Shown one piece after another: positions 2,747 through 43,373 of a DNA stretch of 47,373 bases. The DNA is taken from positions 1-47,373 of the forward strand of contig JAHIFH010000012.1 in NCBI GenBank assembly GCA_018900995.1. Reading direction: 5' to 3'. The notes under the pieces were generated by a model. That model worked only from the letters and a program-made list of their open reading frames with translations, did no database searches and was not told where the DNA came from. The translations under genes and the position numbers were made by a program. This DNA is from Patescibacteria group bacterium. Lineage in GTDB: Bacteria > Patescibacteriota > Microgenomatia > PFEM01 > JAHIFH01. Each line of letters begins with the position of its first letter. The stretch's first letter is position 1.

Positions 2747-4231
2747 TCATCTTCTGCCGAAATCAGCTAAATGCCCTAAGACTTTTCTGCCTGCCATTGA
2801 AATAAACTTTACATCGTCCAAACTTCTTATACTAATCAACCTTTTAATAATAAACCTTGGATCAAAAGCAACTTTATAAATTTCCTGAACTAACCTCTTC
2901 AGTTCGCCATCTTTCATTTTGGTTTTCAAAACAGGCCTACGCATATCATATCTATCCCAATTTAAAGTCTTCAGCCAGTCTTTCTCCTTAGCCTCCCTAA
3001 ACAGAGCTGTACCTGGATACGGGATTATTAAAGTAGCCTGCAATGTATCGGCATAGCCTTTTTTTAACAGCTCTCTTCCAAGCCTAACAGTTTCCAGAAC
3101 ATCCCTTCTGGTTTCCCATGGAAAACCCAGCATTATTGTGAGATGAGGAGATAATCCAGCTTTTTTTGCTTTCTTACAAGAATCTGTTATTTGCTCTACT
3201 TTCAAGTTTTTATTAATCTTGTCCAAAGTTTCCTGATTAGCTGATTCCAAACCAAACAAAAGCATCCTAAAACCTGCTTTTTTCATTAGTTTATAGTCAT
3301 CAAAACTACAAGCACCAAAACGCATATTACAACTAAAATCAATTTTTTTATTATAGCCCCTTTTTATCATTAGCCTACAGAATTTTCTCAGCTGATCCCC
3401 AACAATAAAGGTCCCGGTGTCATCAAACACAGTTTTAACTCCATAGCTGTCTATTAAAAAGCCAATCTCATCAATGAGCAACTCTGGTTTCCTAGCTCTC
3501 CAAGTGGGAAAGAGAGTCGTCCAACTACAAAAAGTGCAACCACCTTTTATCCTGTGCCAACAATCCCGCCCGGCCATGATGTAGGTACCGGGAGTTCGTT
3601 TATAATTTCCATTCTCATAAGCATAAAGTCTCCACTTAGTCAGTTCCCTATTAATAAAAGGCAACTTATTTAAATCATGATTTAAAAGAAATTTACCAGT
3701 GTTTTTAACTTTCTTTCCCTCCCGATAATAAATACCTGGTTCAAGTTTAGAAGTTTGAAGTTTGGAGTTTGGAGTTTGGAGTGAATTACAAAGATTAAGC
3801 AATAGAAAATCATAATCTCCGCCGGTTAAAACAAAATCAACTTTGGATTTTTCAAATGATTCCTCGGGCAGGGCAGTAACATGGTCACCAACGAGAACAG
3901 TGATCAGTGACCAGTGATCAGTGACCAGTGATTTTAGGTCATTAATAATTTCCCAATGTTTTTTAACCACTGGGGTTTTGGTTTCCATAACAATTAAATC
4001 CGGCTTTTCTCTTATTATCTCCTTTAACCATTTTTGATAGCTCCATTTTTCGGCAATACCGTCAAGCCAAACAACATCGTAGCCGGCATTTTTTAATAAA
4101 GTTGCCGCATAAGCAGGTACCATCGGATAAATATAAGTCGGATTATGAAAAACCTGATATTGCCGGTTTTGAGATAGCAAGGGTGTCCCTTTAATATCGT
4201 CAAATGGGGGATAGGTTATTGCTATTTTCAT
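2747..4231 (-). CDS. B12-binding-domain radical SAM enzyme (class B-like)
   Basis: N-terminal flavodoxin-like region (DLIVMETKTPVV...VLVGDHVTALPE). Cys cluster GRDCWHRIKGGCTFCSW. LLFGLESANQETL and TIMLGFPWET motifs match the radical SAM barrel. Confidence 0.8.
   Translation of the reverse strand: MKIAITYPPFDDIKGTPLLSQNRQYQVFHNPTYIYPMVPAYAATLLKNAGYDVVWLDGIAEKWSYQKWLKEIIREKPDLIVMETKTPVVKKHWEIINDLKSLVTDHWSLITVLVGDHVTALPEESFEKSKVDFVLTGGDYDFLLLNLCNSLQTPNSKLQTSKLEPGIYYREGKKVKNTGKFLLNHDLNKLPFINRELTKWRLYAYENGNYKRTPGTYIMAGRDCWHRIKGGCTFCSWTTLFPTWRARKPELLIDEIGFLIDSYGVKTVFDDTGTFIVGDQLRKFCRLMIKRGYNKKIDFSCNMRFGACSFDDYKLMKKAGFRMLLFGLESANQETLDKINKNLKVEQITDSCKKAKKAGLSPHLTIMLGFPWETRRDVLETVRLGRELLKKGYADTLQATLIIPYPGTALFREAKEKDWLKTLNWDRYDMRRPVLKTKMKDGELKRLVQEIYKVAFDPRFIIKRLISIRSLDDVKFISMAGRKVLGHLADFGRR
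3744..3783. repeat. Heptamer tandem array AGTTTGR (one 8-mer plus four 7-mers plus a partial unit)
   Basis: AGTTT starts at 3744, 3752, 3759, 3766 and 3773. It is translated on the minus strand as LQTPNSKLQTSKLE inside the radical SAM ORF. Confidence 0.85.
3898..3932. repeat. Heptamer tandem array CAGTGAY x5
   Basis: cagtgat cagtgac cagtgat cagtgac cagtgat read directly. It encodes SLVTDHWSLIT in the B12-binding domain. Confidence 0.9.
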
Positions 4232-6178: not shown

Positions 6179-7195
6179 TTTTGGGGAGAAAAATCCTTTG
6201 ATAAACAAAACTCCATAAACAAGATGGGTAACAAAAATCGAAGGCACTATCAATAAGGCAAGTCTGAGATTTCTTTCTTTAAGATAAACTTCGGCAACTG
6301 TAATCAAGAGTAATAGGAGGTAAACAAAAACTGAAAATAAATATAAAAGAAAAAGAGGAATTGAAATTATACAAAGCTGAAAAATCTCCAGGACAAAGAT
6401 TAAAAGCGGTCCCCCAAAAAGTCCCAAAACAAAAATCGTCGGCATAAAATAACCAATTCGGAAAGAAGTCTCCGGTAAAATCCTAGCAAAATGACCTCGA
6501 TGAATGGCATAGCGAGAGATTTGTTTTAAATGGGGTCCAAAAACTTCTCGACGATGATGATAAACAAGAACTTTTGGGTCATAAATAATTTTCTTTTTCA
6601 ATTTTTTGGTTAAAAGCAGACATAAGCGCGTGTCCTCGCCTGGCCAGAAATGGGAATCAAATCCGCCAACTTTGACAAAGTCTCTTTTTCTCACTAAAAA
6701 ATTAACGGTTGGGTAGTCGTCGATTTCTTTTCTAGGATAAATTGCACAACGATAAGTCCCTGCCCCACTGCTCCCCAACCAAGTCGACCAAACATATCCC
6801 GAGGCTTTTTGACGGAGATTATTATGCGGCGGGGTTAAACTGGGTCCACAAACAGCAGCAATTGGCTGGTGACTAGTGGCTGGTGGTTGGTGACTGGTGA
6901 AAATTTTAACCGCATTTTTCAGCCAATTTTTGTCAGGATAGGAGTCATCATCTAAAAAAGCGAGAATTTCACCCTTTGCTTTTCTAGCGCCGATATCTCT
7001 TTTATCCGCTGGTCCGGTTTTTGGATAAGTAGGGATAATTCTGGTTTGGGGAAATCTTTCTTTTGTTTTCTTATCAGGGAGGATGATAATCTCGAAGTTT
7101 TTATAAGTCTGTTTTAGAATCGCGGGAATCGTTTCTTGACGAAGATAATCATTTATTTTTTTAACAGGAATAATGATAGAAACCTTAGGAGTCAT
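6167..7195 (-). CDS. GT2 glycosyltransferase with C-terminal transmembrane helices
   Basis: VSIIIPVKKINDYLRQETIPAILKQTYKNFEIIILPD and FLDDDSYP (DxD). The C-terminal ~100 aa are hydrophobic. Confidence 0.85.
   Translation of the reverse strand: MTPKVSIIIPVKKINDYLRQETIPAILKQTYKNFEIIILPDKKTKERFPQTRIIPTYPKTGPADKRDIGARKAKGEILAFLDDDSYPDKNWLKNAVKIFTSHQPPATSHQPIAAVCGPSLTPPHNNLRQKASGYVWSTWLGSSGAGTYRCAIYPRKEIDDYPTVNFLVRKRDFVKVGGFDSHFWPGEDTRLCLLLTKKLKKKIIYDPKVLVYHHRREVFGPHLKQISRYAIHRGHFARILPETSFRIGYFMPTIFVLGLFGGPLLIFVLEIFQLCIISIPLFLLYLFSVFVYLLLLLITVAEVYLKERNLRLALLIVPSIFVTHLVYGVLFIKGFFSPKLRQ
6864..6898. repeat. Heptamer tandem array GRYTRGT x5
   Basis: ggctggt gactagt ggctggt ggttggt gactggt. It encodes TSHQPPATSHQP. 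Confidence 0.9.
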
Positions 7196-9270: not shown

Positions 9271-10584
9271 CTAAGCCAGCCAGTATCCTCGAGTGAAAAA
9301 TAATAGAGAAATAATTAATAGTGGAATAGCGATGAGCGGATACAAGATTCTCACCCACCTATATTTCTCTGCCCAAATAGCAAGAAGAATAAAGCCAGGA
9401 AAAAGAACCAGGGCATAGCGAGGTAAAGAGGAAAAAGTGCCAGTCAGAGTAGGGGTGATATAAGCTAAAGCCATAAAAGTAACATAAGGATACCAGCGCC
9501 GAAGCCAGGCAAAGAGACTTAGAACTAAAAAGGCAGTGCCACTGAAAAATTCCAAAATAACAACAAAGTAAGTAGGAGTTAACTTTTCACAGGTCACGAG
9601 CATCTTTAGGTAACGCCAAAAAACTTGATAAAGAAGTACTAATTTAGTCGCTGTTCTCCCGGCCCCAAAATAAGGTTGGACGTGAAGAAACAAAAGTGGA
9701 TCCTGGAATTTGGTAGCTAAATAGGACATATAACCAATTAATCCCAAAGGGATAAATAAAAGCGGGATTAAAGTGATCGGTGATCGGTGAGTGGTGGTCG
9801 GTTTTTTTCTGGTCGCTGGTGGCTGGTGGCTGGTAGCTCCTTGCTGCCACCATTCAACAAGCAAGGCTGGAAAGAGAAAAACTCCTGGCAAACGAGTTGA
9901 TGTCGCTAACAAGCCGAAAATACCTGCTAGCCACCAGTGTTTGGTTCTGGCAAAATAAAAACTGGCGAGAACGAGCATTAGGAACAATGACTCGGTATAA
10001 ACGGCGGCAAAGTAAAAAGCCGTCGGGAAAATTAGCAAATAGACAACTGCTCTTTTGGCTATACTTTTTTGATAGTCCAGTCTGATCAATTTATAGAAAA
10101 TTAATAGAGCAAAAAATAAACTAACGGTTGAGACAAACAAACCGGCCACCAAATCACGACCATAAAAAAAGGGGGTTAGAGCCTTGATTAACTTCGGATA
10201 AAGAGGAAAAAAGGCCTGCTGATAAATTCCATATCCCTTTCGGGCAATATCCAAATAATGAATTCCATCAAAATTAGCTCGACTCCAAAGCCAACGGGGG
10301 CTAACCACTTGCTTCTCGGTATAAAGATATTCCATAGTGGTGGGAAAATACTGTTCGCCAAGAACAATTAGACCACCAATCAATACTTGCCAGATGACAA
10401 AAACTGACAGAATAAAAGGAAGAGTTTTTTTACTACACCGGCTGCAAGGCGACACTAGTCGCCGCAGTCCCGCACTAGAACGGTGCGGGATAGCACAGCC
10501 CCGTACGAAAACTCTCTCAGCTTTAGCGCTGGAGGCGTTTTCATTTTTTCGTAATAATTTCCTGATATACTTTGTAAGTTTCAT
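9271..10584 (-). CDS. PIG-V-like (GT76-type) polytopic mannosyltransferase
   Basis: NFDGIHYLDIARKGYG...QAFFPLYP matches the PIG-V family signature. Multiple TM helices. The N-terminal 55 aa are atypical and GC-rich. Confidence 0.65.
   Translation of the reverse strand: MKLTKYIRKLLRKNENASSAKAERVFVRGCAIPHRSSAGLRRLVSPCSRCSKKTLPFILSVFVIWQVLIGGLIVLGEQYFPTTMEYLYTEKQVVSPRWLWSRANFDGIHYLDIARKGYGIYQQAFFPLYPKLIKALTPFFYGRDLVAGLFVSTVSLFFALLIFYKLIRLDYQKSIAKRAVVYLLIFPTAFYFAAVYTESLFLMLVLASFYFARTKHWWLAGIFGLLATSTRLPGVFLFPALLVEWWQQGATSHQPPATRKKPTTTHRSPITLIPLLFIPLGLIGYMSYLATKFQDPLLFLHVQPYFGAGRTATKLVLLYQVFWRYLKMLVTCEKLTPTYFVVILEFFSGTAFLVLSLFAWLRRWYPYVTFMALAYITPTLTGTFSSLPRYALVLFPGFILLAIWAEKYRWVRILYPLIAIPLLIISLLFFTRGYWLA
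9773..9838. repeat. Composite element: 4 heptamers, GTTTTTTTCT, 4 heptamers (66 nt)
   Basis: gtgatcg gtgatcg gtgagtg gtggtcg gtttttttct ggtcgct ggtggct ggtggct ggtagct. It encodes ATSHQPPATRKKPTTTHRSPIT. Confidence 0.9.
10442..10490. other. GC-rich twin hairpin element
   Basis: Hairpin A: CTGC-aa-GGCGAC ACTA GTCGCC-GCAG (10442-10467). Hairpin B: TCCCGCAC TAGAACG GTGCGGGA (10468-10490). Both were verified base by base. Confidence 0.8.
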
Positions 10585-11587
10585 TGGCTACCTTTTCCCA
10601 ACTAAATTTTTTCGCTTGCTTTAATCCCTTTTCTATTAAATCCTCTCTTAAATCTTCGTCTTCAATGACAACTGTCAAACCATTAGCAATATCATTTATA
10701 TCATAAGGGTCAACGAAAACTGCTGCCTTGCCTGCGATTTCCGGCAAACTCGCCTTTTTGCTCGTTACTACTGGAGTTCCGCAAGCCATCGCTTCGAGAA
10801 CCGGCAAGCCAAAGCCTTCGTAAAATGACGGCTGACAATAAACGGTGGCTAAATTATAAAGGACGACTAAATCTTTATCGGGAACAAAACCAGTGAGGAT
10901 GATTGATGATTTGCAGTAATCCTGCAACCAAACTAAATCGCGGTTTTCAGGATGGCTTCGGTCAATTTTTCTCTCAACTGCCTGTTTGCCGACAATAACT
11001 AAGGGTATTTTTGCTTTCTCGCAAGCCTTGACCAGGCCGCGAATATTTTTATTGTAATTAACGTCACCGACGTATAAAACAAACTTACTGGGAAGATGAT
11101 ATTTTTGTTTTACAGTAACCAGTGATTGGTGACTAGTAATCGGTTTAAAAATATCAGCCGCCGCCAAATAAACAACATGAATTTTTTCTTTTGAATAATC
11201 TAAATATTTAGTGATGTCTTTTTTAGAGTTTTTAGAATCGGTAATGACACCACTCGCTGTTCTTAGAGCCAGCTTTTGGGCTCTAAATTTCAACTTACCC
11301 TTTATTCCAGGCGGATAATGTTCTGGAAAAACTAGCGGCGTAGTGTCGTGAATGGTGACTACCGTCTTTTTCTTTCTCATTAAAGGTAAAGTCATAAAAA
11401 ACAAATCAAAATAAGAATAATGAATTAAGTCGCAATCTTGAGGAATTTCTCCTTCTTCCACTAAAACCAACTCAAAATCAGCCCTTTTGAAAGACTGCAA
11501 AGCCTTAACAAGATTCTTAGTATAGGCGCCAATGCCCCGAAATTGATGGGCTGACTTTAATGGAGAAATATCAATGGCAACTTTCAT
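10541..11587 (-). CDS. GT4 family (GT-B) glycosyltransferase
   Basis: PSFYEGFGLPVLEAMACGTPVVTS is the Glycos_transf_1 E-x7-E region. Confidence 0.9.
   Translation of the reverse strand: MKVAIDISPLKSAHQFRGIGAYTKNLVKALQSFKRADFELVLVEEGEIPQDCDLIHYSYFDLFFMTLPLMRKKKTVVTIHDTTPLVFPEHYPPGIKGKLKFRAQKLALRTASGVITDSKNSKKDITKYLDYSKEKIHVVYLAAADIFKPITSHQSLVTVKQKYHLPSKFVLYVGDVNYNKNIRGLVKACEKAKIPLVIVGKQAVERKIDRSHPENRDLVWLQDYCKSSIILTGFVPDKDLVVLYNLATVYCQPSFYEGFGLPVLEAMACGTPVVTSKKASLPEIAGKAAVFVDPYDINDIANGLTVVIEDEDLREDLIEKGLKQAKKFSWEKVANETYKVYQEIITKK
11115..11142. repeat. Heptamer tandem array GTRAYYR x4
   Basis: gtaacca gtgattg gtgacta gtaatcg, then gttt. It encodes KPITSHQSLVT. Confidence 0.85.
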
Positions 11588-13609: not shown

Positions 13610-15291
13610 GTTTTAACAATTTGAAAGGCGATGCTTCCATCTTTAAAATAAATTTCTTTAGTTATCTTCGGTGGGGGTGGGATTTTTCCTTCCTCTATTA
13701 ACCTTCGGGTTTTTTCATCGATTGTTAGTTCTGGAATTTCTTTATCAGTTCCAATAATAAGAACATTCTTCTGCTTTTTCAGTTCTTCAAAATTAATTGA
13801 TGCAAAATGATATTTATCAAAATCACGAACCGTTGAAAAACCAAATTTATCTCGAGGAGTCAACTTGACCTCTTGCTGAAATTGTTCTGGAGGATATTTC
13901 AGATAAAAAAGAAATAAAATGTAGGGTTGATCATACTTATCAGTGACGTAAATCCGTTCGTACTTCCCTTCGACTTCTTGAACATAACTAACTAATTGAT
14001 CAAAGCCATATTCCCAAGCATCTGGGTAAGTTTTAGGATAGTGAACATAGTATTGATGTAAATAATAAGTCGTACTCCAAAGAAGAACAACAGCAACCAG
14101 TAACCAGTAACTAGTAACCAGTGGTTTCTTTGCTTTCGTCTTAACCCATAACCAGCTTTGATAAAAACCATAAGCGCTAATGATAATTAAAGGGATAACC
14201 ATCATTAAAGACCGAAGAGCATGGGGAGTTTGGAAAGTCATTGCTGCCGCCACTGGCGCCACTGCTAACCAAAGAAAAACCACTAACCAATTTTTTGGCT
14301 GCTTTTTAAGAAGAAAATAAATCCCTAAAACAACGAGAAGAATATCAAATAAATACATCTGTCCCATGTCGGGAACACGACTTCTCTCGATTACATCGCC
14401 TGTTATGAATAAATATTCTCCCTGAAGATGGTCGAACCAGTTTTTGGCAAAAGCAATTGAATAACCAATGAACCGATTGTGAATTAAGCGTACTGGTAAA
14501 GCCATTGTATCTCCATGATGACCTCGTAGTTCATTAATTCTCCATAATGGTCCCGTGTCTGCCAGTAATCCCACTCCCGCAAACCGCGAAATCCCTGCTG
14601 GACCAAAGAAACTAATGATCAAAGGAATTAGAATTATGAACCCCACGATTCCACTAATTAATACCCATTGGCGATTTTTTCGTTGGAAAAGCCTCTTACG
14701 ATAAAGAAAAATTAATCCTAAGCCCAAAAGTGGAACAATTATCCGCGCGCTATGGTAGGTATAAAAAGATAAACCATAAAACAAAACAGAGAAGACAAAA
14801 AATCTTGGCTTCTCTAATCCCTTGAAAAATAGCCAGCTACCCAAAAGAATAAGGCAAGTAGCCGCGTTTGTTTCCCATCCTCCGCGGGAAAAATGTAGAT
14901 GCCAAGGGGAAATGGCTAAGAAAAACGCTGATAACAACCCCCAAACTTCGTTTTTAAACAACTCTTTAACCAATAAATAAATCAACCAAACGCTGAGAGT
15001 TCCCAAAATCGCTGATGGCAATCTAACCGCCAGAACATTAAGTCCTAAAATCTTGACCAAGGGAAGAACAAGATAAAAATAAAGTCCAGGCTTGTAATCG
15101 CCAAATGACTTGAAATGTATCGGCCACGAATTACCATGCTCATCCTTTCCAGTCAAAATCAGAGAATAAGCGTTATAGCCAATTGCTGCCTCATCGGCAT
15201 TAAGACCAGCAGGGTAACTGCTAAGACCCCATAATCGTAAGATTGAGGCGAGTAATAAGATTAACCCCAAGCAAAAAATTTTAAATTTCAT
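13606..15291 (-). CDS. GT39/PMT_2-type polytopic glycosyltransferase (GT-C), paralogue 1
   Basis: LNADEAAIGYNAYSLILTGKDEHGNSWPIHFKSFGDYKPGLYFY loop-1 DE motif. More than 10 TM helices. C-terminal soluble domain with PYILFLFYLKYPPEQF. Confidence 0.85.
   Translation of the reverse strand: MKFKIFCLGLILLLASILRLWGLSSYPAGLNADEAAIGYNAYSLILTGKDEHGNSWPIHFKSFGDYKPGLYFYLVLPLVKILGLNVLAVRLPSAILGTLSVWLIYLLVKELFKNEVWGLLSAFFLAISPWHLHFSRGGWETNAATCLILLGSWLFFKGLEKPRFFVFSVLFYGLSFYTYHSARIIVPLLGLGLIFLYRKRLFQRKNRQWVLISGIVGFIILIPLIISFFGPAGISRFAGVGLLADTGPLWRINELRGHHGDTMALPVRLIHNRFIGYSIAFAKNWFDHLQGEYLFITGDVIERSRVPDMGQMYLFDILLVVLGIYFLLKKQPKNWLVVFLWLAVAPVAAAMTFQTPHALRSLMMVIPLIIISAYGFYQSWLWVKTKAKKPLVTSYWLLVAVVLLWSTTYYLHQYYVHYPKTYPDAWEYGFDQLVSYVQEVEGKYERIYVTDKYDQPYILFLFYLKYPPEQFQQEVKLTPRDKFGFSTVRDFDKYHFASINFEELKKQKNVLIIGTDKEIPELTIDEKTRRLIEEGKIPPPPKITKEIYFKDGSIAFQIVKT
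14093..14120. repeat. Heptamer tandem array GYAACYA x4
   Basis: gcaacca gtaacca gtaacta gtaacca, then gtggttt. It encodes part of KKPLVTSYWLLV. Confidence 0.85.
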
Positions 15292-16964: not shown

Positions 16965-16991
16965 TTTGAGCCTGCGAAAAACAAGCTTTGC

Positions 16992-18653: not shown

Positions 18654-18662
18654 TTTGCCACT

Positions 18663-19310
18663 TCAAATCACTAAACTTAAACTAAAAGTCAAAAACAAAA
18701 GGAACAAATAAGAAATGATAAAGCCCTTATCAGTAAATAATCTAGAAGTAAAATCTTTAATCGTTTCTCTAATCACATTCTTTTTCGAGCCGGGATAATA
18801 ATAACTAACAAAGCGTAGTTCACCAACAGCACTTTTATCATTAAGAATCATCTCTCCTTCTGAATAGACATCTTTGGGGGAATGAAAAATTTCGACTGCG
18901 TCGAATACGGTTGAAGAAGGCGACTCAAGGTAAAAATAATAACTTTTTCCCGCTGAGTCCGAAATTGGCTCAAACTGAAATCTCACTGAGCCTGGATCGC
19001 CGACATTAAGACCACTGATTTGGATTTCTCTTAAATCACGGTCAGTACCCATCTCCCTTAGGTGAAAAACAATTGGTTGTTCATTTTTTAACATCGCATT
19101 TCTTAAATCAAGAACAATAATATTCAAATTATCTTTATTAGCAACAAAAGTCTGTCCTACTTTCCTATCCTCATAAATTTGATAAAGGTAATCACCACTT
19201 GTCTGGGCAATATCAACTCTTTTCCTTATCCCAAAAACAGAAAATAATAAAACAACCAACAATGCTGTTACCAAAATAAGAATAACTTTTAGCCAGACTT
19301 TCTTATTCAT
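18663..19310 (-). CDS. Hypothetical bitopic membrane protein with an extracytoplasmic beta-rich domain
   Basis: N-terminal and C-terminal hydrophobic helices flank about 160 aa. 8-nt overlap with the upstream gene. Confidence 0.5.
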   Translation of the reverse strand: MNKKVWLKVILILVTALLVVLLFSVFGIRKRVDIAQTSGDYLYQIYEDRKVGQTFVANKDNLNIIVLDLRNAMLKNEQPIVFHLREMGTDRDLREIQISGLNVGDPGSVRFQFEPISDSAGKSYYFYLESPSSTVFDAVEIFHSPKDVYSEGEMILNDKSAVGELRFVSYYYPGSKKNVIRETIKDFTSRLFTDKGFIISYLFLLFLTFSLSLVI

Positions 19311-20550
19311 TTTTCTTCAGGCTTTGCCAGCCTATCCAAAAAGCCGCTCCTGCTAAAACGCTATGTCCAAGGCTCTGAATTAGGAAAGGATCAATGATTT
19401 TTCTGTCTCTTAGTAATTCAAAAAAACTCGGTACCCCAAGAAAGCTTGGATTAACTGGAACCAATAAACCAAAAAGCTGAGCACGATCATTAAACAGAAA
19501 GACAACCCCTAAAAAGGCAAAATAGAAAACAAGCTGAGGAAAAAGAAGTGAAGGTTTTTTGACTAAAATAATCGTTAGAGGAGGCAAAATCCAGATTATC
19601 CATTGCGGATGGAAGTGGCTCAGGGAAAAAACCAACAGAAAGATTGCCAGAAAGAAAGGAATAATTCTTTCCCTTTCTGATGAAAAATGATGAAAAGCCA
19701 AAAAGAAAAGAAAGGTTAAAGCAGTCATAAAAATGATTAAATTTTCTCCAAAACCCAAAGGGATGCTAGCTAGAAATAGCCGTTGGCTCAATCCCGAAAA
19801 AAGAACTGATTGGCGAAAAGCCATTGAATTTAAGAAAGGCAAGATACTAATCACATAAGGAATGATGCCTAGAATAAAAATCATCAATCTCTCTCTTGTT
19901 TTTTTGCTTCCCAGGATAACCAAAAATGGCAAAAGCAATAAAGGATAGGTTTTGAAAGCAGCTGCCACCCCTAGGGTTAATCCTCCAAGTTTTTTTCTAT
20001 CTCTCAAAACTAAAAGGACAGCTAGTAAGACAAGAAGTGAGGGTAAAATATCAAAATGGCTAAGTCCATAAATGGCATAAAGAACAACTGGATTAAAGAG
20101 CCAAAATAAAAAGACTCTCTGTTTTTGCTTTTTCTCCTTAAAGAATTGGGTCAAAACAAAAGCCGTCACGATATCTAAGATGAGATAGGGTATTTTGAGG
20201 ACAAAAAGATAATGAAAAATTCGGGGATTAAAAATTCGCTCTGGTCCCCAATCAAAAATCCAGTTAACAAAACCACTGCCTAAAAAGGGACGAAGTAAAA
20301 TCTGGATTGATCCGAATAAGAAATAAACTAAAGGAGGGTAATTAAAAGTATCAGTATAAGGAAGGCTTTGGATGTTACCAGCCAGATATTGATAAATATT
20401 AAACACTCTTTGAGAGAGAAAGTAGAAATGAAAATGGTGGCTTTTTATATCGGGGTGAAAAAGAAACGGCATTAATAAAAATCGAATAAAAAGAGCCATC
20501 AAAAGCACTTGACCATAAAAAGATTTTAAGAATTTTTTCATCCTTTCCAT
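19303..20550 (-). CDS. Polytopic GT-C-like glycosyltransferase (DUF2029/GT87-like)
   Basis: FHPDIKSH, YPPLVYFLFG and AAAFKTYPLLLLPFL. Paralogue of 28201..29469. Confidence 0.55.
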   Translation of the reverse strand: MERMKKFLKSFYGQVLLMALFIRFLLMPFLFHPDIKSHHFHFYFLSQRVFNIYQYLAGNIQSLPYTDTFNYPPLVYFLFGSIQILLRPFLGSGFVNWIFDWGPERIFNPRIFHYLFVLKIPYLILDIVTAFVLTQFFKEKKQKQRVFLFWLFNPVVLYAIYGLSHFDILPSLLVLLAVLLVLRDRKKLGGLTLGVAAAFKTYPLLLLPFLVILGSKKTRERLMIFILGIIPYVISILPFLNSMAFRQSVLFSGLSQRLFLASIPLGFGENLIIFMTALTFLFFLAFHHFSSERERIIPFFLAIFLLVFSLSHFHPQWIIWILPPLTIILVKKPSLLFPQLVFYFAFLGVVFLFNDRAQLFGLLVPVNPSFLGVPSFFELLRDRKIIDPFLIQSLGHSVLAGAAFWIGWQSLKKNE

Positions 20551-20574
20551 TGAATTATTACCCTTCTTATATTG

Positions 20575-20664
20575 TATAATACTCGAAGAGAATTTTCGAG
20601 GTGTAAAACACCGCTGAATAATACTCGAAGAGGATTATCGAGGCACGAAGTGCCGCTGTATAAT
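20575..20664. repeat. 42-bp tandem repeat x2 plus a third TATAAT, in the divergent intergenic hub
   Basis: Unit 1 (20575-20616): TATAATACTCGAAGAGAATTTTCGAGGTGTAAAACACCGCTG. Unit 2 (20617-20658): AATAATACTCGAAGAGGATTATCGAGGCACGAAGTGCCGCTG. TATAAT follows at 20659-20664. Confidence 0.85.
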
Positions 20665-20669
20665 AAACC

Positions 20670-22343
20670 ATGATGAAAGGAAAATTGGGCCGGTTAATAA
20701 TCCTAGGAATTTTGGTTGCTCTATGTCTTGGCAATTTTATTCTCGGTATTAAGCTTAATTATCCACCTTATGAAAACGAGCTGGTCACTCTAATTAACAC
20801 CAGATTAACATTTAACAATTTGGGATTGGATCAACAATCCCGAGCAACAATTCTCAATAATATTTTAGGTGAAGAGCAATATTTTTCTGAAAAAATTTTC
20901 CCCTTAAGAAGCTGGCTTCAAGCTTTGGGCGGGACTAAAGGCATTTTTAACCTGAGGTTGGTCAACTTTATTATTTTTATTATGACCCTTATTCTCTTTT
21001 ATTTTTTCTTGAAGCAAGTTGGATGGACATCACCAATCACCCTTTTTCCCCTTATTTCAATTACAATCTCTCCTCTATCACTTTCTCTCTGGTTATTTAG
21101 ACCAAAAATTTGTTTAACCATTTTTCTTCTTATTTCTTGGCTACTTATCTGGTCTAGAAAAGAAAGAAAATTCATTCATGACATTTTTTGGGTAATAAAT
21201 ACCCTTCTTCTCTTTTACTCATCGTTTCAAGGATTAATAATTGGCCTTTTACTCTTGACTCCTATAACGCTGTTTAGATTCTACCGAGCCAAAAAATACT
21301 CTATTTTTTTGACTTTAGCCATCTTAGTGCTCTTCTTAATAATTCCTATTATTAAAAATCCTCTTTTTAAAAAAAGCTTAACTCAGTCAGCACCTTTTAA
21401 TGCCGTCAATCCAACTCAAGTCGGGCAGCAAATAACCGAGAGATTTACTCAAGAAGATGGTCTCCAGGTAAGGGTCATTTTTCCTCTTTTGTTCAGAAGA
21501 ATGGGATACAATAAAATTTTCTTCGCCTATCGAAATTTCACCAAGGAAGTTCTAAATTTTTTTGATCTAGAGACACTCTTTTTCCAAGAAGTTCATCCAA
21601 TGCAACAAAAATCTGAGGTCACATTTTATTGGCCCGAAATTTTTGTCTTTCTTGTTGGCATTTTTTGGTTTATTAAAAGCGGTTTTGGAAAAAAACAAAA
21701 AAATTTACTATTTCTAATTTTTTTGTCATTCATTTTTCATCTTTTTACTCAAAACGACACATTTGCCGGAAGATACGCCTTAACTCTCTTTACTCTGGCT
21801 ATTGTTATTGGAATAGGTTTTAAACAAATGCCACGAGGCTTATCTTTGATTATTCTTCCTCTTATTATCTGGGCAATTTATATCAACACTTATGATATCC
21901 TTAAAAGACCCCTTTTTTGGTATGACAATCGCCCCTATGTCTATGCTCAAGGAATAAAAGCAATTAAGATGATAGAAACAGAATCAGTCTCATACAAAAA
22001 TATTTATTTAACTTCTCTTGTTGGCAATCCAAAAATTTACTATTTTTACTATTTCTCACCCCAACCTGAACTCTTTCTCAAAGATCCCCTCTTCATTGAA
22101 GATAAGGGTAAAATTGTCTATTTTAACAGCTTTGACCTCGTCAGTAATCTTCCTCAAAAAAATTCACTTTATTTTGGCTTTCTGGGAGAGTTCATCGGTC
22201 CCAATTCTTTAAACGAATTTTCTGAGCAGGACATCAATAAAATAGAACCAATCGGGCTCAAGATAGAAAAGGTTTGGAAACTCGATAATACAATTGCTTT
22301 TCGCTACAGTGATTATTTTGTTCTTGCCTCATTGAAGGAATAA
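20670..22343 (+). CDS. Divergent GT39-like polytopic membrane paralogue lacking the DE/GYNAYS loop motif
   Basis: Same length class (557 aa) and a related C-terminal domain (KIYYFYYFSPQPELF). Loop 1 reads PPYENELVTLINT instead of xDExxxGYNAYS. Confidence 0.55.
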   Translation: MMKGKLGRLIILGILVALCLGNFILGIKLNYPPYENELVTLINTRLTFNNLGLDQQSRATILNNILGEEQYFSEKIFPLRSWLQALGGTKGIFNLRLVNFIIFIMTLILFYFFLKQVGWTSPITLFPLISITISPLSLSLWLFRPKICLTIFLLISWLLIWSRKERKFIHDIFWVINTLLLFYSSFQGLIIGLLLLTPITLFRFYRAKKYSIFLTLAILVLFLIIPIIKNPLFKKSLTQSAPFNAVNPTQVGQQITERFTQEDGLQVRVIFPLLFRRMGYNKIFFAYRNFTKEVLNFFDLETLFFQEVHPMQQKSEVTFYWPEIFVFLVGIFWFIKSGFGKKQKNLLFLIFLSFIFHLFTQNDTFAGRYALTLFTLAIVIGIGFKQMPRGLSLIILPLIIWAIYINTYDILKRPLFWYDNRPYVYAQGIKAIKMIETESVSYKNIYLTSLVGNPKIYYFYYFSPQPELFLKDPLFIEDKGKIVYFNSFDLVSNLPQKNSLYFGFLGEFIGPNSLNEFSEQDINKIEPIGLKIEKVWKLDNTIAFRYSDYFVLASLKE

Positions 22344-22351
22344 ATTAGAAA

Positions 22352-24025: not shown

Positions 24026-25724
24026 AGTGGCTAAAATAAGATTTTTCCGTCCATTGATTCTTTTGTCTGTTATTGTAATTGTTGCTTTTTTACTCAGAAC
24101 GATTGCTCTTGATAAAAATCCTCCTGAACTTTTTGGTGATGAACTTGATGTTGGTTATCAAGCCTTTTCCCTGCTGAAAACCGCCCATGACTATAAGGGT
24201 CATTTTTTGCCAACTTATCTCCAAAGTTTTGCTGAGTGGCGAACACCATTTTTAATGTACGTCACCGCGCCTTTTGTTGCCATTTTTGGTCTCAATGAAT
24301 GGGGGGTAAGATTGCCTAGCGCTGTTTTTGGTTCCCTGACTATTGTTTTACTCTATTTTCTTGTTCTCCATTTGAGCAAGAATGAAAAACTTTCTTTGCT
24401 TTCTGCTTTCTTTTTAACTATTTCTCCCTGGCATATACAATACAGCCGGGCGGCTTTTGAAGTAGCTTTAATGCTCTTTTTAATAGTTGGTGGCCTTTTG
24501 GCTTTTTTTCAAGCAGGACAAAAAGGGAGTTTTAAGATGGGTGTCTTGGCTGGAGTTCTTTTTGCCTTATCTCTTTATTCTTACAACACCGCTAATGTTT
24601 TTGTTCCATTAATGATGATATTCACCACATTTTGTTTCTTCTCCTTTAAAAAACAAAAGAAGAAGATAATGGCTGTTTGGTTTATATTTATAATCATAAT
24701 TATTCCCCTGATTTACAATATCGTCTTTGGCCATGCCGCTACTCGCTATAGTCAATTTTCTATTTTCAATGATCAAGAAACTGTCAGAAGAATTAATTCA
24801 ATGAGGTCTTACCCAGGTACTAACCCCATCTTGGAACAAGTCTTTCACAATAAACCAATCGAATGGTCTAAAAAAATAATTCAAAACTACGCTACCGCCT
24901 TCTCCCCTCAATTTCTCTTTATTCATGGCGATGTCACCTTCCGCCATTCTCTTCATGAGATAGGTCAGATTCTTTGGTTCCAACTACCTTTGATTTTGTT
25001 AGGACTCTACTGGGTTGTTAAAAATTTCCGTCTTAAACAAAATCTTTTTTGGCTAAGCTGGCTTCTAATTGCCCCAATTCCTGCCAGTTTAACTATCGAT
25101 GGAGGTTATCATGCAAGTCGACTAATCTTAATGGTTGTCCCTCTTTCTGTCTTATCAGCTTACGGAGGATTGTTAATTATTGAAAAGTTAATTAGTTTTA
25201 GGAAGAAATCAAGTGTATTATTTGGACTTCTCTTAATTCCAATTCTCTTTATTCCTTTGATGGAATTTCTCCATTACCAGCATTATTATTGGAAACATTA
25301 TCCCATTGACTCCTGGCGCTGGTGGCATTACGGTTACAAAGAGGCAATGACTTCCTTAATCTCCCTGGAGAAAGATTTCAATCAAGTTCTCATTGAAACA
25401 ACTTATGAACCTGCTCTAATTAGATATATTTTTTGGAAAAAGTACGACCCTCAAAAAATCTATCATTTGGATGACCAATTAAAAGAAAATGCAGTTGAAG
25501 GGCTAACTGGCTTTTGTCTTGACGAAAAAGTCTGTTTTGTTAATTTAAGGGGGGACCTCCGAAAAGAGCAAGTAAAAGGTAATACCCTTTACCTTATTTC
25601 TCAAGAGAAAAACATTCCTGGCGACTGGGATTGGTCCGAAAGCCCTCCTGACTGGGTTGAAGTCATCAAAACAATAAAAAATCCCTGGGGAGACCCAATC
25701 TTTTACTTGGTCACCGGCGTTTGA
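24012..25724 (+). CDS. GT39/PMT_2-type polytopic glycosyltransferase, paralogue 5
   Basis: LFGDELDVGYQAFSLLKTAHDYKGHFLP. The track start is TTG 24012; GTG 24027, just after the upstream stop, is an alternative. Confidence 0.8.
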   Translation: MSKIKVAKIRFFRPLILLSVIVIVAFLLRTIALDKNPPELFGDELDVGYQAFSLLKTAHDYKGHFLPTYLQSFAEWRTPFLMYVTAPFVAIFGLNEWGVRLPSAVFGSLTIVLLYFLVLHLSKNEKLSLLSAFFLTISPWHIQYSRAAFEVALMLFLIVGGLLAFFQAGQKGSFKMGVLAGVLFALSLYSYNTANVFVPLMMIFTTFCFFSFKKQKKKIMAVWFIFIIIIIPLIYNIVFGHAATRYSQFSIFNDQETVRRINSMRSYPGTNPILEQVFHNKPIEWSKKIIQNYATAFSPQFLFIHGDVTFRHSLHEIGQILWFQLPLILLGLYWVVKNFRLKQNLFWLSWLLIAPIPASLTIDGGYHASRLILMVVPLSVLSAYGGLLIIEKLISFRKKSSVLFGLLLIPILFIPLMEFLHYQHYYWKHYPIDSWRWWHYGYKEAMTSLISLEKDFNQVLIETTYEPALIRYIFWKKYDPQKIYHLDDQLKENAVEGLTGFCLDEKVCFVNLRGDLRKEQVKGNTLYLISQEKNIPGDWDWSESPPDWVEVIKTIKNPWGDPIFYLVTGV

Positions 25725-26553
25725 AAAATCTTCGCCATTTTTGCCCCAGCCAAATAATTGAAGTTAATAGATAATATTTGACTAAACTATTATATTTTTT
25801 GCTGCTCTCCACTAGCCATTGATGGGTAATTTCGGGCATTTCTCTACCCGCCGCTCCATGGTGGTGGAAAACCTTAGCCGAAGGTAAATAATAAACATTA
25901 AGCCCTGCTTTTTTAGCCCGGCGGCAATAATCTAAATCCTCAAAATAGAAAAAATATTTCTCATCAAATAAACCAACGTCTTTGATAACTTTTTTAGGAA
26001 TAAGCATCGCCGCTCCCGTAACGGCATCAACTTTAACTGCTTTTTTTGTTTGAGGAAAATATTTTTGGTAACTCCCTTCCTGTCCTAGCCAAAATTCTTT
26101 AATGGCTCTGATAAGAGAAGGAAAATGATAAACAGACGGCTGGATGGAACCGTCAAGATTAACTAGTTGCAAGCCAATAATTGCTAGAGGGTGATTTTCG
26201 GCAAATTCAACTGCTTCTTTCAAAGTTTCTTTTTGTATCTGGGTGTCGGAATTAAGCAAAAGAATAAATTTCCCTTTCGCTTTTTTGATACCTTTATTAA
26301 CCGCTCCAGCAAATCCCCAGTTTTGGTCAAGGAAAATAGTTTGAATCGTTCTATTTTTAGCGACTTTCTTGAGATAATTAACACTGCTGTCAGTTGAACC
26401 ATTATCAACAACAATTATTTCAGTAACCAGTGATCGGTGATCGGTGATCGGTTTTTTTCTGGTTGCTAATGGCTGGTTACTAATCACTGATTCCAGGCAT
26501 TCTTTTAGTAATTTCTTCGTATTGTAATTAGGAATAATGATTGATAAATCCAT
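25711..26553 (-). CDS. GT2 glycosyltransferase
   Basis: LSIIIPNYNTKKLLKECLESV...EIIVVDNGSTDSS and LLLNSDT. Confidence 0.9.
   Translation of the reverse strand: MDLSIIIPNYNTKKLLKECLESVISNQPLATRKKPITDHRSLVTEIIVVDNGSTDSSVNYLKKVAKNRTIQTIFLDQNWGFAGAVNKGIKKAKGKFILLLNSDTQIQKETLKEAVEFAENHPLAIIGLQLVNLDGSIQPSVYHFPSLIRAIKEFWLGQEGSYQKYFPQTKKAVKVDAVTGAAMLIPKKVIKDVGLFDEKYFFYFEDLDYCRRAKKAGLNVYYLPSAKVFHHHGAAGREMPEITHQWLVESSKKYNSLVKYYLLTSIIWLGQKWRRFFKRR
26423..26488. repeat. Second copy of the composite heptamer element (66-nt span as delimited; outer units degenerate)
   Basis: gtaacca gtgatcg gtgatcg gtgatcg gtttttttct ggttgct aatggct ggttact aatcact. It encodes (VISNQ)PLATRKKPITDHRSLVT. Confidence 0.85.
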
Positions 26554-31943: not shown

Positions 31944-32716
31944 TTCTCCTTTTTGACTTGCATTTCCCAGAGTTGCATGTAAATAATCATCGTGTGGAAA
32001 GCCTGATAAATTGATTCGATCCAACCTTCAGTTCCATCACGAAATCCTTGCTTTTTTATAAGCCTATCGAACAAGGTCGTTGCTCCCATCCGCAAAATTC
32101 GCCACCAGGTAACTGGCGGATGATTAGCTTCATGTAAAAGCTTTGCTTCTATCTTTGACCATCTTATTGACTTTTCAAGCATGGGCTCAATTGATTTTGG
32201 CTGAAGATGAATCATCGGCTCCTTCAAATGACCCAATTCGCCCTCAAAAACTGGCTCCTCGTGCAGCTCTCCTCTCCATCTTTTCAATTTATCTCGTTTA
32301 TAAAGTCGCTTAACATAACCCGGCCACCAACCTCCCCAACGAAGTTCTTTGCCTAAAAGGAAGTTTCTCCTCGGAATGGCAAAAGCCGTGTATTGCGTAT
32401 TAGGCATTGTCTCTTGAATTTCCTTCCGCAATTCTGGTGTTATCCTTTCATCGGCATCAACATAGAGTATCCATTCTCCTTTTGCTTCTCTTAATCCCCT
32501 ATTTCTCCATTGAGAGTAAGCTAATCCTTTAAAAGGAAGATTAATAGATTTAGTGGCATATTGCTTGGCAATTTGGGAGGTTTTGTCGGTCGAGCCGGTA
32601 TCGATATATATTATTTCATCCGCCAGCTGGCGGACTGATTCTAGACAGTCCTTAATCATCTTTTCTTCATTTTTAGCAATAATAATGACACTAAGCTTCA
32701 TAACTCCCCTTGCCAA
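31940..32716 (-). CDS. GT2 glycosyltransferase (WaaE/KdtX-like subgroup)
   Basis: LSVIIIAKNEEKMIKDCLESVRQLADEIIYIDTGSTDKT and YVDADERI. Confidence 0.9.
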   Translation of the reverse strand: MARGVMKLSVIIIAKNEEKMIKDCLESVRQLADEIIYIDTGSTDKTSQIAKQYATKSINLPFKGLAYSQWRNRGLREAKGEWILYVDADERITPELRKEIQETMPNTQYTAFAIPRRNFLLGKELRWGGWWPGYVKRLYKRDKLKRWRGELHEEPVFEGELGHLKEPMIHLQPKSIEPMLEKSIRWSKIEAKLLHEANHPPVTWWRILRMGATTLFDRLIKKQGFRDGTEGWIESIYQAFHTMIIYMQLWEMQVKKEK

Positions 32717-37684: not shown

Positions 37685-37713
37685 GCCCTAATTTTATCAC
37701 AATTACCCCAGAT

Positions 37714-43351: not shown

Positions 43352-43373
43352 TTAATTATCCTCAATCTTTTCC

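What the first reader, a model, noticed from the sequence alone, without database searches (positions are those of the whole stretch)
9773..9838. Composite element (4 heptamers, GTTTTTTTCT, 4 heptamers) shared by two non-homologous genes
The plus strand reads GTGATCG GTGATCG GTGAGTG GTGGTCG GTTTTTTTCT GGTCGCT GGTGGCT GGTGGCT GGTAGCT. That is 66 nt or 22 codons, translated on the minus strand as ATSHQPPATRKKPTTTHRSPIT in a loop of the PIG-V-like membrane protein. A copy with the same architecture and register lies at 26423-26488 in a soluble GT2. By my hand alignment 51 of 66 positions are identical, including the whole 10-nt T-rich core and the adjacent GTGATCG units. The element has the same orientation relative to the host ORF in both genes, and both copies keep the frame. 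That points to spread of a discrete element rather than shared ancestry of the hosts. Track ORF 9644..9853 is this same element read in a second stop-free frame.
Basis: seen in the sequence. Interest (0 to 1): 0.7.

Follow-up and report, generated by a model that had tools for sequence, protein, structure and literature searches.

The report
Tiny in-frame palindromic repeat in glycosyltransferases
A 66-base, imperfectly palindromic repeat built from 7-base units sits in frame in surface loops of unrelated sugar-transfer enzymes of an uncultivated Patescibacteria bacterium, and it comes and goes between close relatives, so it behaves like very small selfish DNA living inside genes.

Summary
Bases 9773-9838 and 26423-26488 share 51/66 bases, the same layout (4 heptamers, GTTTTTTTCT, 4 heptamers) and the same codon frame (…TRKKP…).

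It is not chance. The 13-mer junction is expected 0.03 times per window, and period-7 runs occur 6 times against 0.17 expected.

The host is a Microgenomates-group Patescibacteria MAG. The window is one large glycosylation gene cluster with no transposase.

Related contigs carry the same 66-nt composite at five sites in GT2, GT-C and GT4 genes, plus a half-element at a sixth. AlphaFold places the two window copies in low-confidence coil.

- Close orthologues have empty sites. One gene 96% identical to its window orthologue gained a copy recently.
- Element similarity is decoupled from host-gene similarity (65/66 against 80%).
- The two heptamer arms are reverse complements around an A-rich loop, but no covariation supports a maintained hairpin.

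Best reading: a non-autonomous, in-frame palindromic mini-element. It resembles Rickettsia palindromic elements and cyanobacterial STRR/SDR repeats but has not, as far as I could find, been described in Patescibacteria. How it spreads is unknown.

The parts
9811..9838 (-). Copy 1, upstream arm (coding strand GCTACCA GCCACCA GCCACCA GCGACCA), encodes ATSHQPPAT
9801..9810 (-). Copy 1, A-rich core (coding strand AGAAAAAAAC, read as R-K-K); it forms the loop of the palindrome
9773..9800 (-). Copy 1, downstream arm (coding strand CGACCAC CACTCAC CGATCAC CGATCAC), encodes PTTTHRSPIT
9271..10584 (-). Host 1: GT-C / PIG-V-like (PF04188 in its homologues) polytopic membrane protein, 437 aa. The element is residues 250-271, a coil between helices 232-251 and 269-293
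26461..26488 (-). Copy 2, upstream arm (coding strand GTGATTA GTAACCA GCCATTA GCAACCA), encodes VISNQPLAT
26451..26460 (-). Copy 2, A-rich core, identical to that of copy 1
26423..26450 (-). Copy 2, downstream arm (coding strand CGATCAC x3 + TGGTTAC), encodes PITDHRSLVT. Its 3' end CTGGTTACT pairs with AGTAACCAG in the upstream arm
25711..26553 (-). Host 2: GT2 glycosyltransferase (PF00535), 280 aa. The element is residues 23-44, a disordered loop between helix alpha1 and strand beta2 (pLDDT <50 at residues 30-39)
11114..11146 (-). Half-element in a GT4 gene (10541..11587): AAACC followed by 4 downstream-type heptamers (GATTACT AGTCACC AATCACT GGTTACT), encoding KPITSHQSLVT. The same half-element sits at the same site in L142; L141 has none and L152 has a different array there
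   Evidence: D2; 21.9 bits, model positions 34-66
32386..32425 (-). Empty site in a GT2 paralogue (31940..32716), ...EIQETMPNTQYT|AFAIPRR. The 96%-identical orthologue in L143 carries a composite copy here (...KKPITDHRSLVT|SYAIPRR)
3898..3932 (-). Related in-frame heptamer array (TGRTCAC type, SLVTDHWSLIT) in a radical-SAM gene; the syntenic relative has a different segment here
6863..6899 (-). Related in-frame heptamer array (CCAGYCA type, TSHQPPATSHQP) in a GT2 gene; a 6-aa insertion relative to the syntenic orthologue
14091..14122 (-). Related in-frame heptamer array (TGGTTAC type, LVTSYWLLVA) in a PMT_2 gene

Best explanation
The 66-nt feature is one copy of a family of very small, non-autonomous, imperfectly palindromic repeat elements found in Microgenomates-group Patescibacteria. 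On the coding strand the consensus is four heptamers of type GTGAYCA, then AGAAAAAAACC, then four heptamers of the reverse-complementary type (TGRTCAC / CGAYCAC). The arms can therefore pair, with the A-rich core as the loop. Shown: copies lie in frame in disordered surface loops of unrelated glycosylation enzymes. They are present or absent between close relatives, and their sequence relationships do not follow those of their host genes. Inferred: new copies arise either by a copy-and-paste step or by ectopic, array-guided gene conversion, probably through a hairpin-forming single-stranded intermediate, using machinery encoded elsewhere in the genome. Selection then keeps only copies that stay open in frame and encode a hydrophilic Ser/Thr/Pro/Lys-rich coil in a tolerant loop. 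That filter explains the constant orientation and frame, and also why the upstream arm departs from perfect GTGATCA repeats, which would give TGA in every frame. Most probably the element has no function for the host (selfish or neutral DNA), and its side effect is to create and renew disordered loops.
For: Family and architecture: the same 4+core+4 = 66-nt layout is seen in the window (2 copies), L124, L142, L143, L146, L147 and L149, with near-variants in L144, L151 (2 copies) and L152. An nhmmer profile finds non-training copies at 27-42 bits, a half copy at 33 bits, and nothing above 20 bits in 957 kb of control DNA. Different hosts: GT2 loop alpha1-beta2, GT2 second loop, a second GT2 paralogue, a GT-C membrane protein and a GT4 C-terminal domain. 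Presence/absence: GT2 orthologues 71-84% identical (loop masked) have a conserved ancestral loop KKNKGKLSI instead. The nearest membrane orthologues (up to 83% identical) have an unrelated loop. The L143 gene-1 copy is absent from the 96%-identical window orthologue and from L144. Decoupling: L143 vs L146 share 65/66 nt in the element against 80% over the gene (63% at third codon positions), which puts the element in the top ~1% of 66-nt windows; window vs L143 share 53/66 although the genes are 87% identical. The eight filled GT2 alleles are never monophyletic in 200 bootstraps. The window's membrane copy is closer to the GT4 copy in L124 (17/22 aa by my count of the peptides; 55/66 nt) than to the membrane copy in L142 (13/22 aa; 45/66 nt). 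Palindrome: 13-19 of 26 arm positions are Watson-Crick complementary in one fixed register in all 10 copies, with P<=0.002 in 8 of them. L142 and L143 fold as full-length hairpins (-18.4 and -21.7 kcal/mol, z about -3). Loop placement. Contigs break at or near element copies (L143 starts inside one; L124 ends about 100 nt past one), which hints at multiple copies.
Against: No mobilising enzyme is encoded in the window and I saw no target-site duplications (by eye). Insertions replace the ancestral loop instead of adding cleanly. Copy number per genome is unknown: only 47 kb of the source genome and about 124 kb of relatives could be examined, all of it glycosylation clusters. At three of the sites the ancestral loop is already Lys-rich, so the A-rich core could partly derive from the host. 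The same loops carry other heptamer arrays in other lineages, so a local mutational process clearly also operates. The bootstrap result rests on a nearly star-like NJ tree. The 65/66 identity is matched by 2 of 217 other windows in the gene. No covariation supports a maintained hairpin, and the window's own copies are the least palindromic.
Confidence: 0.6

Rival explanations
1. Local origin without transfer. A lineage-specific mutational process (replication slippage or template switching on TGAYCA-type palindromic heptamers) repeatedly seeds arrays on both sides of pre-existing A-rich (lysine) tracts in tolerant loops. The composites in different genes would then be convergent products, occasionally homogenised by gene conversion.
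For: Period-7 arrays are strongly enriched and occur at many other sites. At every array site the syntenic relative has a different segment, sometimes of exactly the same length (GT4 PITSHQSLVTV vs PIKETKQLEKV). The membrane-protein loop and the GT4 linker carry unrelated heptamer arrays in other lineages (KMENGKW, KFQISNF, GAAATTG). Ancestral loops at GT2 loop 1 (KKNKGK), GT2 loop 2 (LKKVAK) and the membrane loop (KKSQK) are Lys-rich.
Against: Identical junctions (…CCAG AAAAAAA CCGA…) and a fixed 4+4 unit count at five unrelated sites are hard to obtain by convergence. The L143 gene-1 site had no Lys tract in its closest empty orthologue (ETMPNTQYT). Elements are nearly identical in hosts that are 20% diverged. 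Element length is constant where slippage would predict variable unit numbers.
Confidence: 0.2
2. A selected functional module: either a peptide linker (a Ser/Thr/Pro/Lys-rich disordered segment, for example for interaction or modification) or an RNA/DNA hairpin inside the coding region that modulates translation or mRNA stability of glycosylation genes.
For: The reading frame is conserved (…[RS]KK(T)P…) in every copy. Three 'VIRYQ'-type copies are conserved at synonymous sites. Several copies can form a hairpin. All known hosts are glycosylation enzymes.
Against: Close orthologues function without it. The closest host pair has a more diverged element than the gene average (53/66 against 87%). 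There is no compensatory change, and pairing equals the shuffle expectation. The window's membrane copy has lost all pairing. The GT2 segment is disordered at pLDDT <50. The restriction to glycosylation genes may only reflect the fact that all DNA sampled came from glycosylation clusters.
Confidence: 0.1
3. Contingency (phase-variation) loci. Heptamer number changes by slippage and shifts the frame, switching surface-glycan genes on and off, as with the heptanucleotide repeats of NeuO in E. coli K1.
For: The unit length is not a multiple of 3. The arrays sit inside many glycosyltransferase genes of one cluster. Heptanucleotide coding repeats are an established phase-variation device (paper PMC13001214, listed). 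P0007 differs by exactly 21 nt, i.e. 3 units.
Against: The arrays are short and imperfect (at most 3.3 perfect units). All sequenced alleles keep 66 nt or differ in frame. No frameshifted allele was seen among the roughly 20 alleles with heptamer-type loops.
Confidence: 0.06
4. Chance resemblance of two low-complexity heptamer stretches.
For: Heptamer arrays of related sequence are common in this genome, so some similarity between arrays is expected.
Against: The shared non-repetitive 13-mer junction is expected 0.03 times. Both copies have the same register, the same arm lengths and the same frame. Independent copies turn up in other contigs.
Confidence: 0.01

Closest known systems
Rickettsia palindromic elements (RPE; Ogata et al. 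2000, as summarised in Delihas 2011, PMC3184786)
   Same: Small palindromic repeats inserted in frame inside unrelated protein-coding genes, tolerated because they land in surface regions. Patchy presence among orthologues. No coding capacity of their own.
   Different: RPEs are about 105-146 nt, are not built from heptamer arrays and occur in Alphaproteobacteria. This element is 66 nt, its arms are 4x7-nt arrays, it occurs in Patescibacteria, and I have no evidence of any sequence relationship.
Cyanobacterial STRR heptanucleotide repeats and the small dispersed repeats (SDR) embedded in them (Mazel 1990; Elhai et al. 2008, recalled from memory because the paper is not held; Elhai 2015, PMC4390886, cites the precise insertion of SDR5 into HIP1)
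   Same: Tandem heptamers of similar sequence (cyanobacterial TTGGTCA against TGGTCAC here). A short unique core flanked by heptamer arrays. Predicted hairpins. Evidence of mobility from presence/absence between relatives. GATC-containing motifs.
   Different: A different phylum. The core is 10-11 nt instead of 21-27 nt. Here the arms are mutually inverted arrays of fixed length (4+4). The copies seen are overwhelmingly in frame inside genes. I could not compare sequences with SDR1-8.
REPINs (REP doublets forming hairpins, mobilised by RAYT transposases; Bertels & Rainey 2011, PMC3116915)
   Same: Two inverted short repeats separated by a short spacer, forming a hairpin of about 70-100 nt. Non-autonomous. 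Disseminated within genomes.
   Different: REPINs are extragenic and GC-rich and are linked to a RAYT gene. These copies are intragenic, and no RAYT could be looked for outside the 47-kb window.
[quoted passage not shown] 2010, PMC2996958)
   Same: Coding repeats whose DNA shows dyad symmetry, with a punctate distribution suggesting horizontal and intragenomic movement.
   Different: PARCELs are 25-residue domains in long tandem tracts within ORFs of unknown function, and they form amphipathic structure. Here single 22-codon units are inserted into enzymes and are disordered.
Phase-variable heptanucleotide coding repeats (e.g. NeuO of E. coli K1; PMC13001214)
   Same: 7-nt units inside coding regions of surface-glycan genes.
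   Different: Those tracts are long, perfect and variable in unit number. The arrays here are short, imperfect and constant in length.
Tandem repeats creating intrinsically disordered regions in Borg proteins (Schoelmerich et al. 2023, PMC9879509)
   Same: Rapidly evolving nucleotide repeats that generate new disordered protein segments.
   Different: Borg repeats are simple direct tandem repeats. From memory, those within genes have unit lengths divisible by 3. They have no palindromic composite architecture and are not dispersed copies of one element.

Membership tests
In-frame palindromic repeat elements (RPE-like 'selfish DNA in protein-coding genes') | Dispersed copies of one repeat in unrelated genes | tested here: met
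   Five full sites and one half site in GT2 (two paralogues, two loops), GT-C and GT4 genes across 10 contigs. Per-genome copy number is unknown.
In-frame palindromic repeat elements (RPE-like 'selfish DNA in protein-coding genes') | Dyad symmetry / hairpin potential | tested here: met
   13-19 of 26 complementary arm positions in a fixed register, P<=0.002 in 8 of 10 copies. Full-length hairpins in L142 and L143. Weak in the two window copies; no covariation.
In-frame palindromic repeat elements (RPE-like 'selfish DNA in protein-coding genes') | In-frame, in surface-exposed regions compatible with the fold | tested here: met
   AlphaFold models place the two window copies (GT2 residues 23-44, membrane residues 250-271) in low-pLDDT coil between secondary-structure elements. 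All copies seen are open in frame.
In-frame palindromic repeat elements (RPE-like 'selfish DNA in protein-coding genes') | Presence/absence among close orthologues | tested here: met
   the L143 gain against a 96%-identical window orthologue.
In-frame palindromic repeat elements (RPE-like 'selfish DNA in protein-coding genes') | Sequence homology to Rickettsia RPE families | not tested
   No RPE sequences were compared. The resemblance is one of behaviour only.
MITE | Target-site duplication flanking the element | tested here: not met
   No direct duplication at the junctions of the 10 copies inspected. The ancestral loop is replaced instead.
MITE | Terminal inverted repeats matching a parent IS/transposase | not testable with these tools
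REPIN / REP-RAYT | Extragenic location | tested here: not met
   Every composite copy is intragenic. Only one simple array (L142 2743-2777) is intergenic.
REPIN / REP-RAYT | Associated RAYT (Y1 HUH transposase) gene in the genome | not testable with these tools
   None in the window.
STRR / SDR of cyanobacteria | Tandem heptanucleotide arrays | tested here: met
   TRF and the period test.
STRR / SDR of cyanobacteria | Unique core of 21-27 nt embedded in the arrays, matching SDR1-8 | tested here: inconclusive
   A unique core exists but is only 10-11 nt.
STRR / SDR of cyanobacteria | Occurrence in heterocyst-forming cyanobacteria | tested here: not met
   The host proteins are 100% identical to proteins that NCBI names as from a 'Patescibacteria group bacterium', and relatives are named 'Microgenomates group'.
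Phase-variable simple sequence repeat (contingency locus) | Long perfect repeat tract with unit-number variation that shifts the frame | tested here: not met
   At most 3.3 perfect units. Alleles are 66 nt or differ by 21 nt or 3 nt. Population reads were not available.
Diversity-generating retroelement (VR/TR pair) | Differences confined to adenines of a template repeat, and a nearby reverse transcriptase | tested here: not met
   Differences between the two window copies are mostly T/C and G/A on the coding strand (by eye). There is no RT in the window.

The most novel reading that the evidence does not exclude
These composites represent an undescribed class of ultra-small (66 nt) mobile palindromic elements made of inverted heptanucleotide arrays. 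They would be actively mobilised by a dedicated, still unidentified machinery, and would be widespread in Patescibacteria and possibly beyond: a T9SS-type sorting domain from another organism (P0254) carries '…KSKEPITDYRSLITDHRSPIT…' in a loop. This would link them mechanistically to cyanobacterial STRR/SDR repeats and make them a general engine that writes new disordered loops into enzymes of streamlined genomes.
Probability: 0.3. Interest if true: 0.75.

Novelty: new variant of a known kind. Interest (0 to 1): 0.6.

Why it matters
If confirmed, this would be among the smallest repeat elements shown to spread inside protein-coding genes, and the first such family I am aware of in Patescibacteria/CPR bacteria, whose genomes are usually described as streamlined. 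I found no report in the held literature, but that library is incomplete.

It offers a concrete way for disordered surface loops to be created and renewed in enzymes. It may explain odd 7-residue-periodic peptides (…SLVTDHW…, …PITDHRS…) in predicted proteins. It also suggests that heptanucleotide repeat systems known from cyanobacteria have counterparts elsewhere.

There are practical consequences too. These repeats produce spurious overlapping ORFs, may break assemblies (contig ends in L143 and L124), and can mislead alignments and phylogenies.

Tried and rejected
1. Genome-contig scan with the 16-mer TCGGTTTTTTTCTGGT.

2. Metagenome-contig scan with the 20-mer GTGRTCGGTTTTTTTCTGGT. It returned 18 loci, of which only L124 is a true copy. 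Exact matching is too strict for a family whose arms vary.

3. Peptide-profile search. 

4. Exhaustive HMMER search with the 22-position profile. It mostly returned long translated heptamer arrays, not single composites, so it could not count host families.

5. Viral contigs scan: one chance match.

6. Hairpin covariation: no support, so I dropped the idea of a conserved functional RNA structure.

7. Rfam gathering scan of the window: nothing.

8. DGR idea: rejected. The mismatches are not adenine-specific and there is no RT.

9. Third 13-mer site at 37255-37267: no heptamer flanks, so treated as chance.

10. Elhai et al. 2008 could not be read, either by DOI or by PMC id.

11. Support values for the GT2 tree did not print. 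Only the monophyly count (0 of 200) is used.
Full report
**Observation.** The sequence is as described. On the + strand, 9773-9838 reads four heptamers (GTGATCG GTGATCG GTGAGTG GTGGTCG), then GTTTTTTTCT, then four heptamers (GGTCGCT GGTGGCT GGTGGCT GGTAGCT). A second copy with the same layout lies at 26423-26488. The two share 51/66 bases without gaps, and the repeat finder reports 82% over 61 nt. Both lie on minus-strand ORFs and are read in the same frame: ATSHQPPATRKKPTTTHRSPIT (9837..9772) and VISNQPLATRKKPITDHRSLVT (26487..26422).

Chance does not explain this.
- The non-repetitive junction GGTTTTTTTCTGG is expected 0.03 times per window and occurs three times. Two occurrences are the elements; the third, at 37255, has no heptamer flanks.
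- Perfect period-7 runs number 6 against 0.17 expected, whereas every other period from 4 to 12 gives 0-1.

**Context.** Both host proteins are 100% identical to proteins that NCBI names as from a 'Patescibacteria group bacterium' (contig of 49 kb), and their relatives are labelled Microgenomates group. The window has 35-38% G+C. It is one long glycosylation cluster: about eleven GT2, at least three GT4, about a dozen GT-C/PMT_2, two GT87, two flippase-type proteins, a radical-SAM enzyme and a methyltransferase. It encodes no transposase, reverse transcriptase or recombinase. Host 1 (9271..10584) is a polytopic membrane protein whose homologues hit PF04188 (PIG-V-like). Host 2 (25711..26553) is a GT2.

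The window also holds other in-frame heptamer arrays (3743, 3898, 6863, 14091, 17094) and a half-element at 11114-11146 in a GT4 gene.

**Orthologues.**
- *GT2 family.* The closest orthologues (P0002-P0008) carry the same 22-residue segment. Equally close ones (P0009, P0010, P0013 and others, 268 aa) instead have a short loop, KKNKGKLSI. That loop is conserved across clades and so is ancestral. More distant orthologues again carry heptamer-type peptides at the same place.
- *Membrane family.* The nearest orthologues (up to 83% identity) have an unrelated loop. More distant ones (P0131, P0139, P0149, P0207) have '…VVRKKPITNHQSLIT'. Others have different 7-residue-periodic peptides.
- *Syntenic relative.* In a relative covering 32 kb (L139 + L141, 66-82% protein identity), every array site of the window holds a different, mostly non-repetitive segment.

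**DNA of other copies.** On the coding strand every copy has the same plan: four units of type GTGAYCA / GYSACCA, then AGAAAAAAACC, then four units of type CGAYCAC / TGGTCAC / AATCACY. The total is 66 nt in the window (2 copies), L124, L142, L143, L146, L147 and L149, with small variations in L144, L151 and L152.

The hosts differ:
- a GT4 C-terminal domain (L124);
- a second loop of the same GT2, so one gene carries two copies (L151);
- a different GT2 paralogue (L143 positions 1-36).

An nhmmer profile built from eight copies recovers the non-training copies at 27-42 bits and the half copies at 22-33 bits. It gives at most 20 bits (core only) in 957 kb of unrelated DNA that had been selected for containing the core.

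**Evidence that the element has its own history.**

1. *A recent gain.* The L143 gene-1 copy (…KKPITDHRSLVT|SYAIPRR) is absent from the window orthologue, which is 96% identical over 149 residues (…EIQETMPNTQYT|AFAIPRR). It is also absent from the more distant L144 (…EIQEAIQSKKYT|AYAIPRR). The empty state is therefore ancestral and the gain is recent. Its downstream arm matches the window's GT2 copy (27/28), not L143's own GT2 copy.

2. *Decoupled similarity.* L143 and L146 share 65/66 element bases although the genes are 80% identical (63% at third positions), and differences resume in the flanking codons. L143/L149 and L146/L149 behave alike (62/66 and 61/66). The closest gene pair, window/L143 at 87%, has only 53/66. 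By rank, the element is in the top 1-2% of 66-nt windows for the first three pairs and in the lower quarter for the last. The signal is clear but not overwhelming.

3. *Non-monophyly.* With the loop masked, the eight filled GT2 alleles are never monophyletic in 200 NJ bootstraps, and element subtypes (VIRYQ…, VISNQ…) do not follow the host tree. The tree is nearly star-like, so this is moderate evidence.

4. *Subtypes cut across host families.* The window's membrane copy resembles the GT4 copy of L124 more than the membrane copy of L142 (17/22 against 13/22 residues, my count of the peptides; 55/66 against 45/66 nt). The two copies in L151 share genome-specific features: an ACACC junction and AATCACY units.

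**Anatomy.** The upstream unit GTGACCA is the reverse complement of the downstream unit TGGTCAC. Both arms are a near-palindromic hexamer (TGAYCA) plus one asymmetric base. In all ten copies, 13-19 of 26 arm positions are Watson-Crick complementary in the same register (P<=0.002 in eight). The window copies are the weakest (13/26 and 10/26). L142 and L143 fold as full-length hairpins with the A-rich core as the loop (-18.4 and -21.7 kcal/mol, z about -3). The window GT2 copy keeps a 9-bp stem, and the window membrane copy keeps none. Across copies there is no covariation: pairing equals the shuffle expectation, with one compensatory pair. The symmetry therefore belongs to the element's design or origin and is not a structure maintained in each host gene. 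A perfect (GTGATCA)3 contains TGA in every frame, which explains why the upstream arms of intragenic copies deviate (TGG or CCA variants) and why the palindrome is imperfect. This last point follows directly from the sequence.

**Placement in the proteins.**
- *GT2 model* (pLDDT 92.6): helix 13-25, coil 26-43 with pLDDT <50 at residues 30-39, strand 44-50. The element is the alpha1-beta2 loop.
- *Membrane protein model* (pLDDT 81.6): the element lies in a low-confidence coil between helices 232-251 and 269-293.

**Interpretation.** I favour a non-autonomous, in-frame palindromic mini-element (confidence 0.6). It would spread by insertion or by array-guided ectopic conversion, with selection keeping only open, hydrophilic, loop-compatible copies. 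That filter accounts for the constant orientation and frame without any targeting.

The steps that are shown: the repeat family exists, it occurs in multiple unrelated hosts, the two window copies sit in loops, it is present or absent between relatives with one recent gain, its similarity is decoupled from that of its hosts, and its arms have dyad symmetry. The steps that are inferred: the mode of spread, the role of a hairpin intermediate, and the absence of any host function.

The main rival (0.2) is local generation of arrays on both sides of pre-existing lysine/A tracts. It is supported by the Lys-rich ancestral loops, by the replacement (not addition) of loop sequence, and by the diversity of arrays at the same loops. 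Against it stand the identical junctions, the fixed 4+4 layout at five sites, and the L143 gain at a site that had no Lys tract. A selected peptide or RNA module (0.1), phase variation (0.06) and chance (0.01) fit the data less well.

**Comparison with known systems.** In behaviour it is closest to Rickettsia palindromic elements, which are in-frame palindromic repeats in protein genes (Delihas 2011, PMC3184786). In composition it is closest to cyanobacterial STRR heptamers with embedded small dispersed repeats (Elhai 2008, recalled from memory; Elhai 2015, PMC4390886). In geometry it resembles REPINs (PMC3116915). It fails defining features of MITEs (no target-site duplication), REPINs (intragenic), phase-variable repeats (short, imperfect, constant length) and DGRs. 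I found no description of such elements in Patescibacteria in the held literature, which is not proof of absence. I rate it a new variant of a known kind.

**Limits.** Only 47 kb of the source genome and about 124 kb of relatives, all from glycosylation clusters, could be examined. The copy number per genome, the host range beyond glycosylation genes and the mobilising machinery therefore remain unknown.

Noticed in passing
window 10426-10536 (minus strand), residues ~17-53 of the membrane host: A second, unrelated in-frame insertion in the same gene: 37 extra residues (NASSAKAERVFVRGCAIPHRSSAGLRRLVSPCSRCSKKT) that are absent from the syntenic orthologue. The DNA is GC-rich in an AT-rich gene and has two clear hairpins (CCCGCAC…GTGCGGG; GGCGAC-TAGT-GTCGCC). 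RNA fold -53 kcal/mol, z -4.2; pLDDT <50. No copy in any fetched locus and no Rfam match.
   Followed up: partly
window 20573-20665 (intergenic, between divergent genes 19303..20550 and 20670..22343): A 42-nt unit repeated about 2.1 times. Each unit carries a TATAAT-like box and two small hairpins. The second hairpin differs between units by compensatory changes (GGTGT…ACACC against GGCAC…GTGCC). Possibly a duplicated promoter/leader or a small RNA.
   Followed up: no
P0254 (115-aa protein from the representative library; organism unknown): A T9SS-type C-terminal sorting domain (FlgD_ig / Por_Secre_tail) with '…IGKSKEPITDYRSLITDHRSPIT…' and a second 'PITDHRSQIT' inserted between its strands. 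Similar Lys-core plus heptamer-array insertions therefore exist in a protein family not seen among the window's genes.
   Followed up: partly
P0241-P0284: Many small hypothetical ORFs in public data are simply long translated heptamer arrays (PITDHRS, PITNHQS, SDQWPVT, up to about 20 units). They are probably spurious gene calls across STRR-like repeats.
   Followed up: no
membrane-protein family loop (alignment); L152 2084-2117: The same loops are hot spots for unrelated heptamer arrays in other lineages: KMENGKWRMENL, KFQISNFKFQIF and KIKNLKLKIKNF in the membrane protein (inferred from the peptides), and GAAATTG x4.9 (KLEIGNWKLEI) at the GT4 linker (seen in DNA).
   Followed up: partly
L142 2743-2777: An intergenic heptamer array (ATTAGTG x5) directly after the membrane-protein gene, with stops in all frames. 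Arrays are therefore not restricted to coding DNA.
   Followed up: no
window 13606-25724 and 34510-44927: About a dozen paralogous GT-C/PMT_2-type membrane glycosyltransferase genes of roughly 500-575 aa lie in two runs. The repeat finder families D1 and I1 mark conserved segments between the paralogues. This is an unusually large expansion for a small genome.
   Followed up: no
window 12464-13609 (minus strand): A single ORF combines a GTPase domain (MMR_HSR1 / RsgA-like) with a SIS sugar-isomerase domain, an unusual fusion inside the glycosylation cluster.
   Followed up: no
L143 position 1; L124 position 2816: The L143 contig begins inside an element copy, and the L124 contig ends about 100 nt past one. 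This is what a multi-copy repeat does to short-read assemblies.
   Followed up: no
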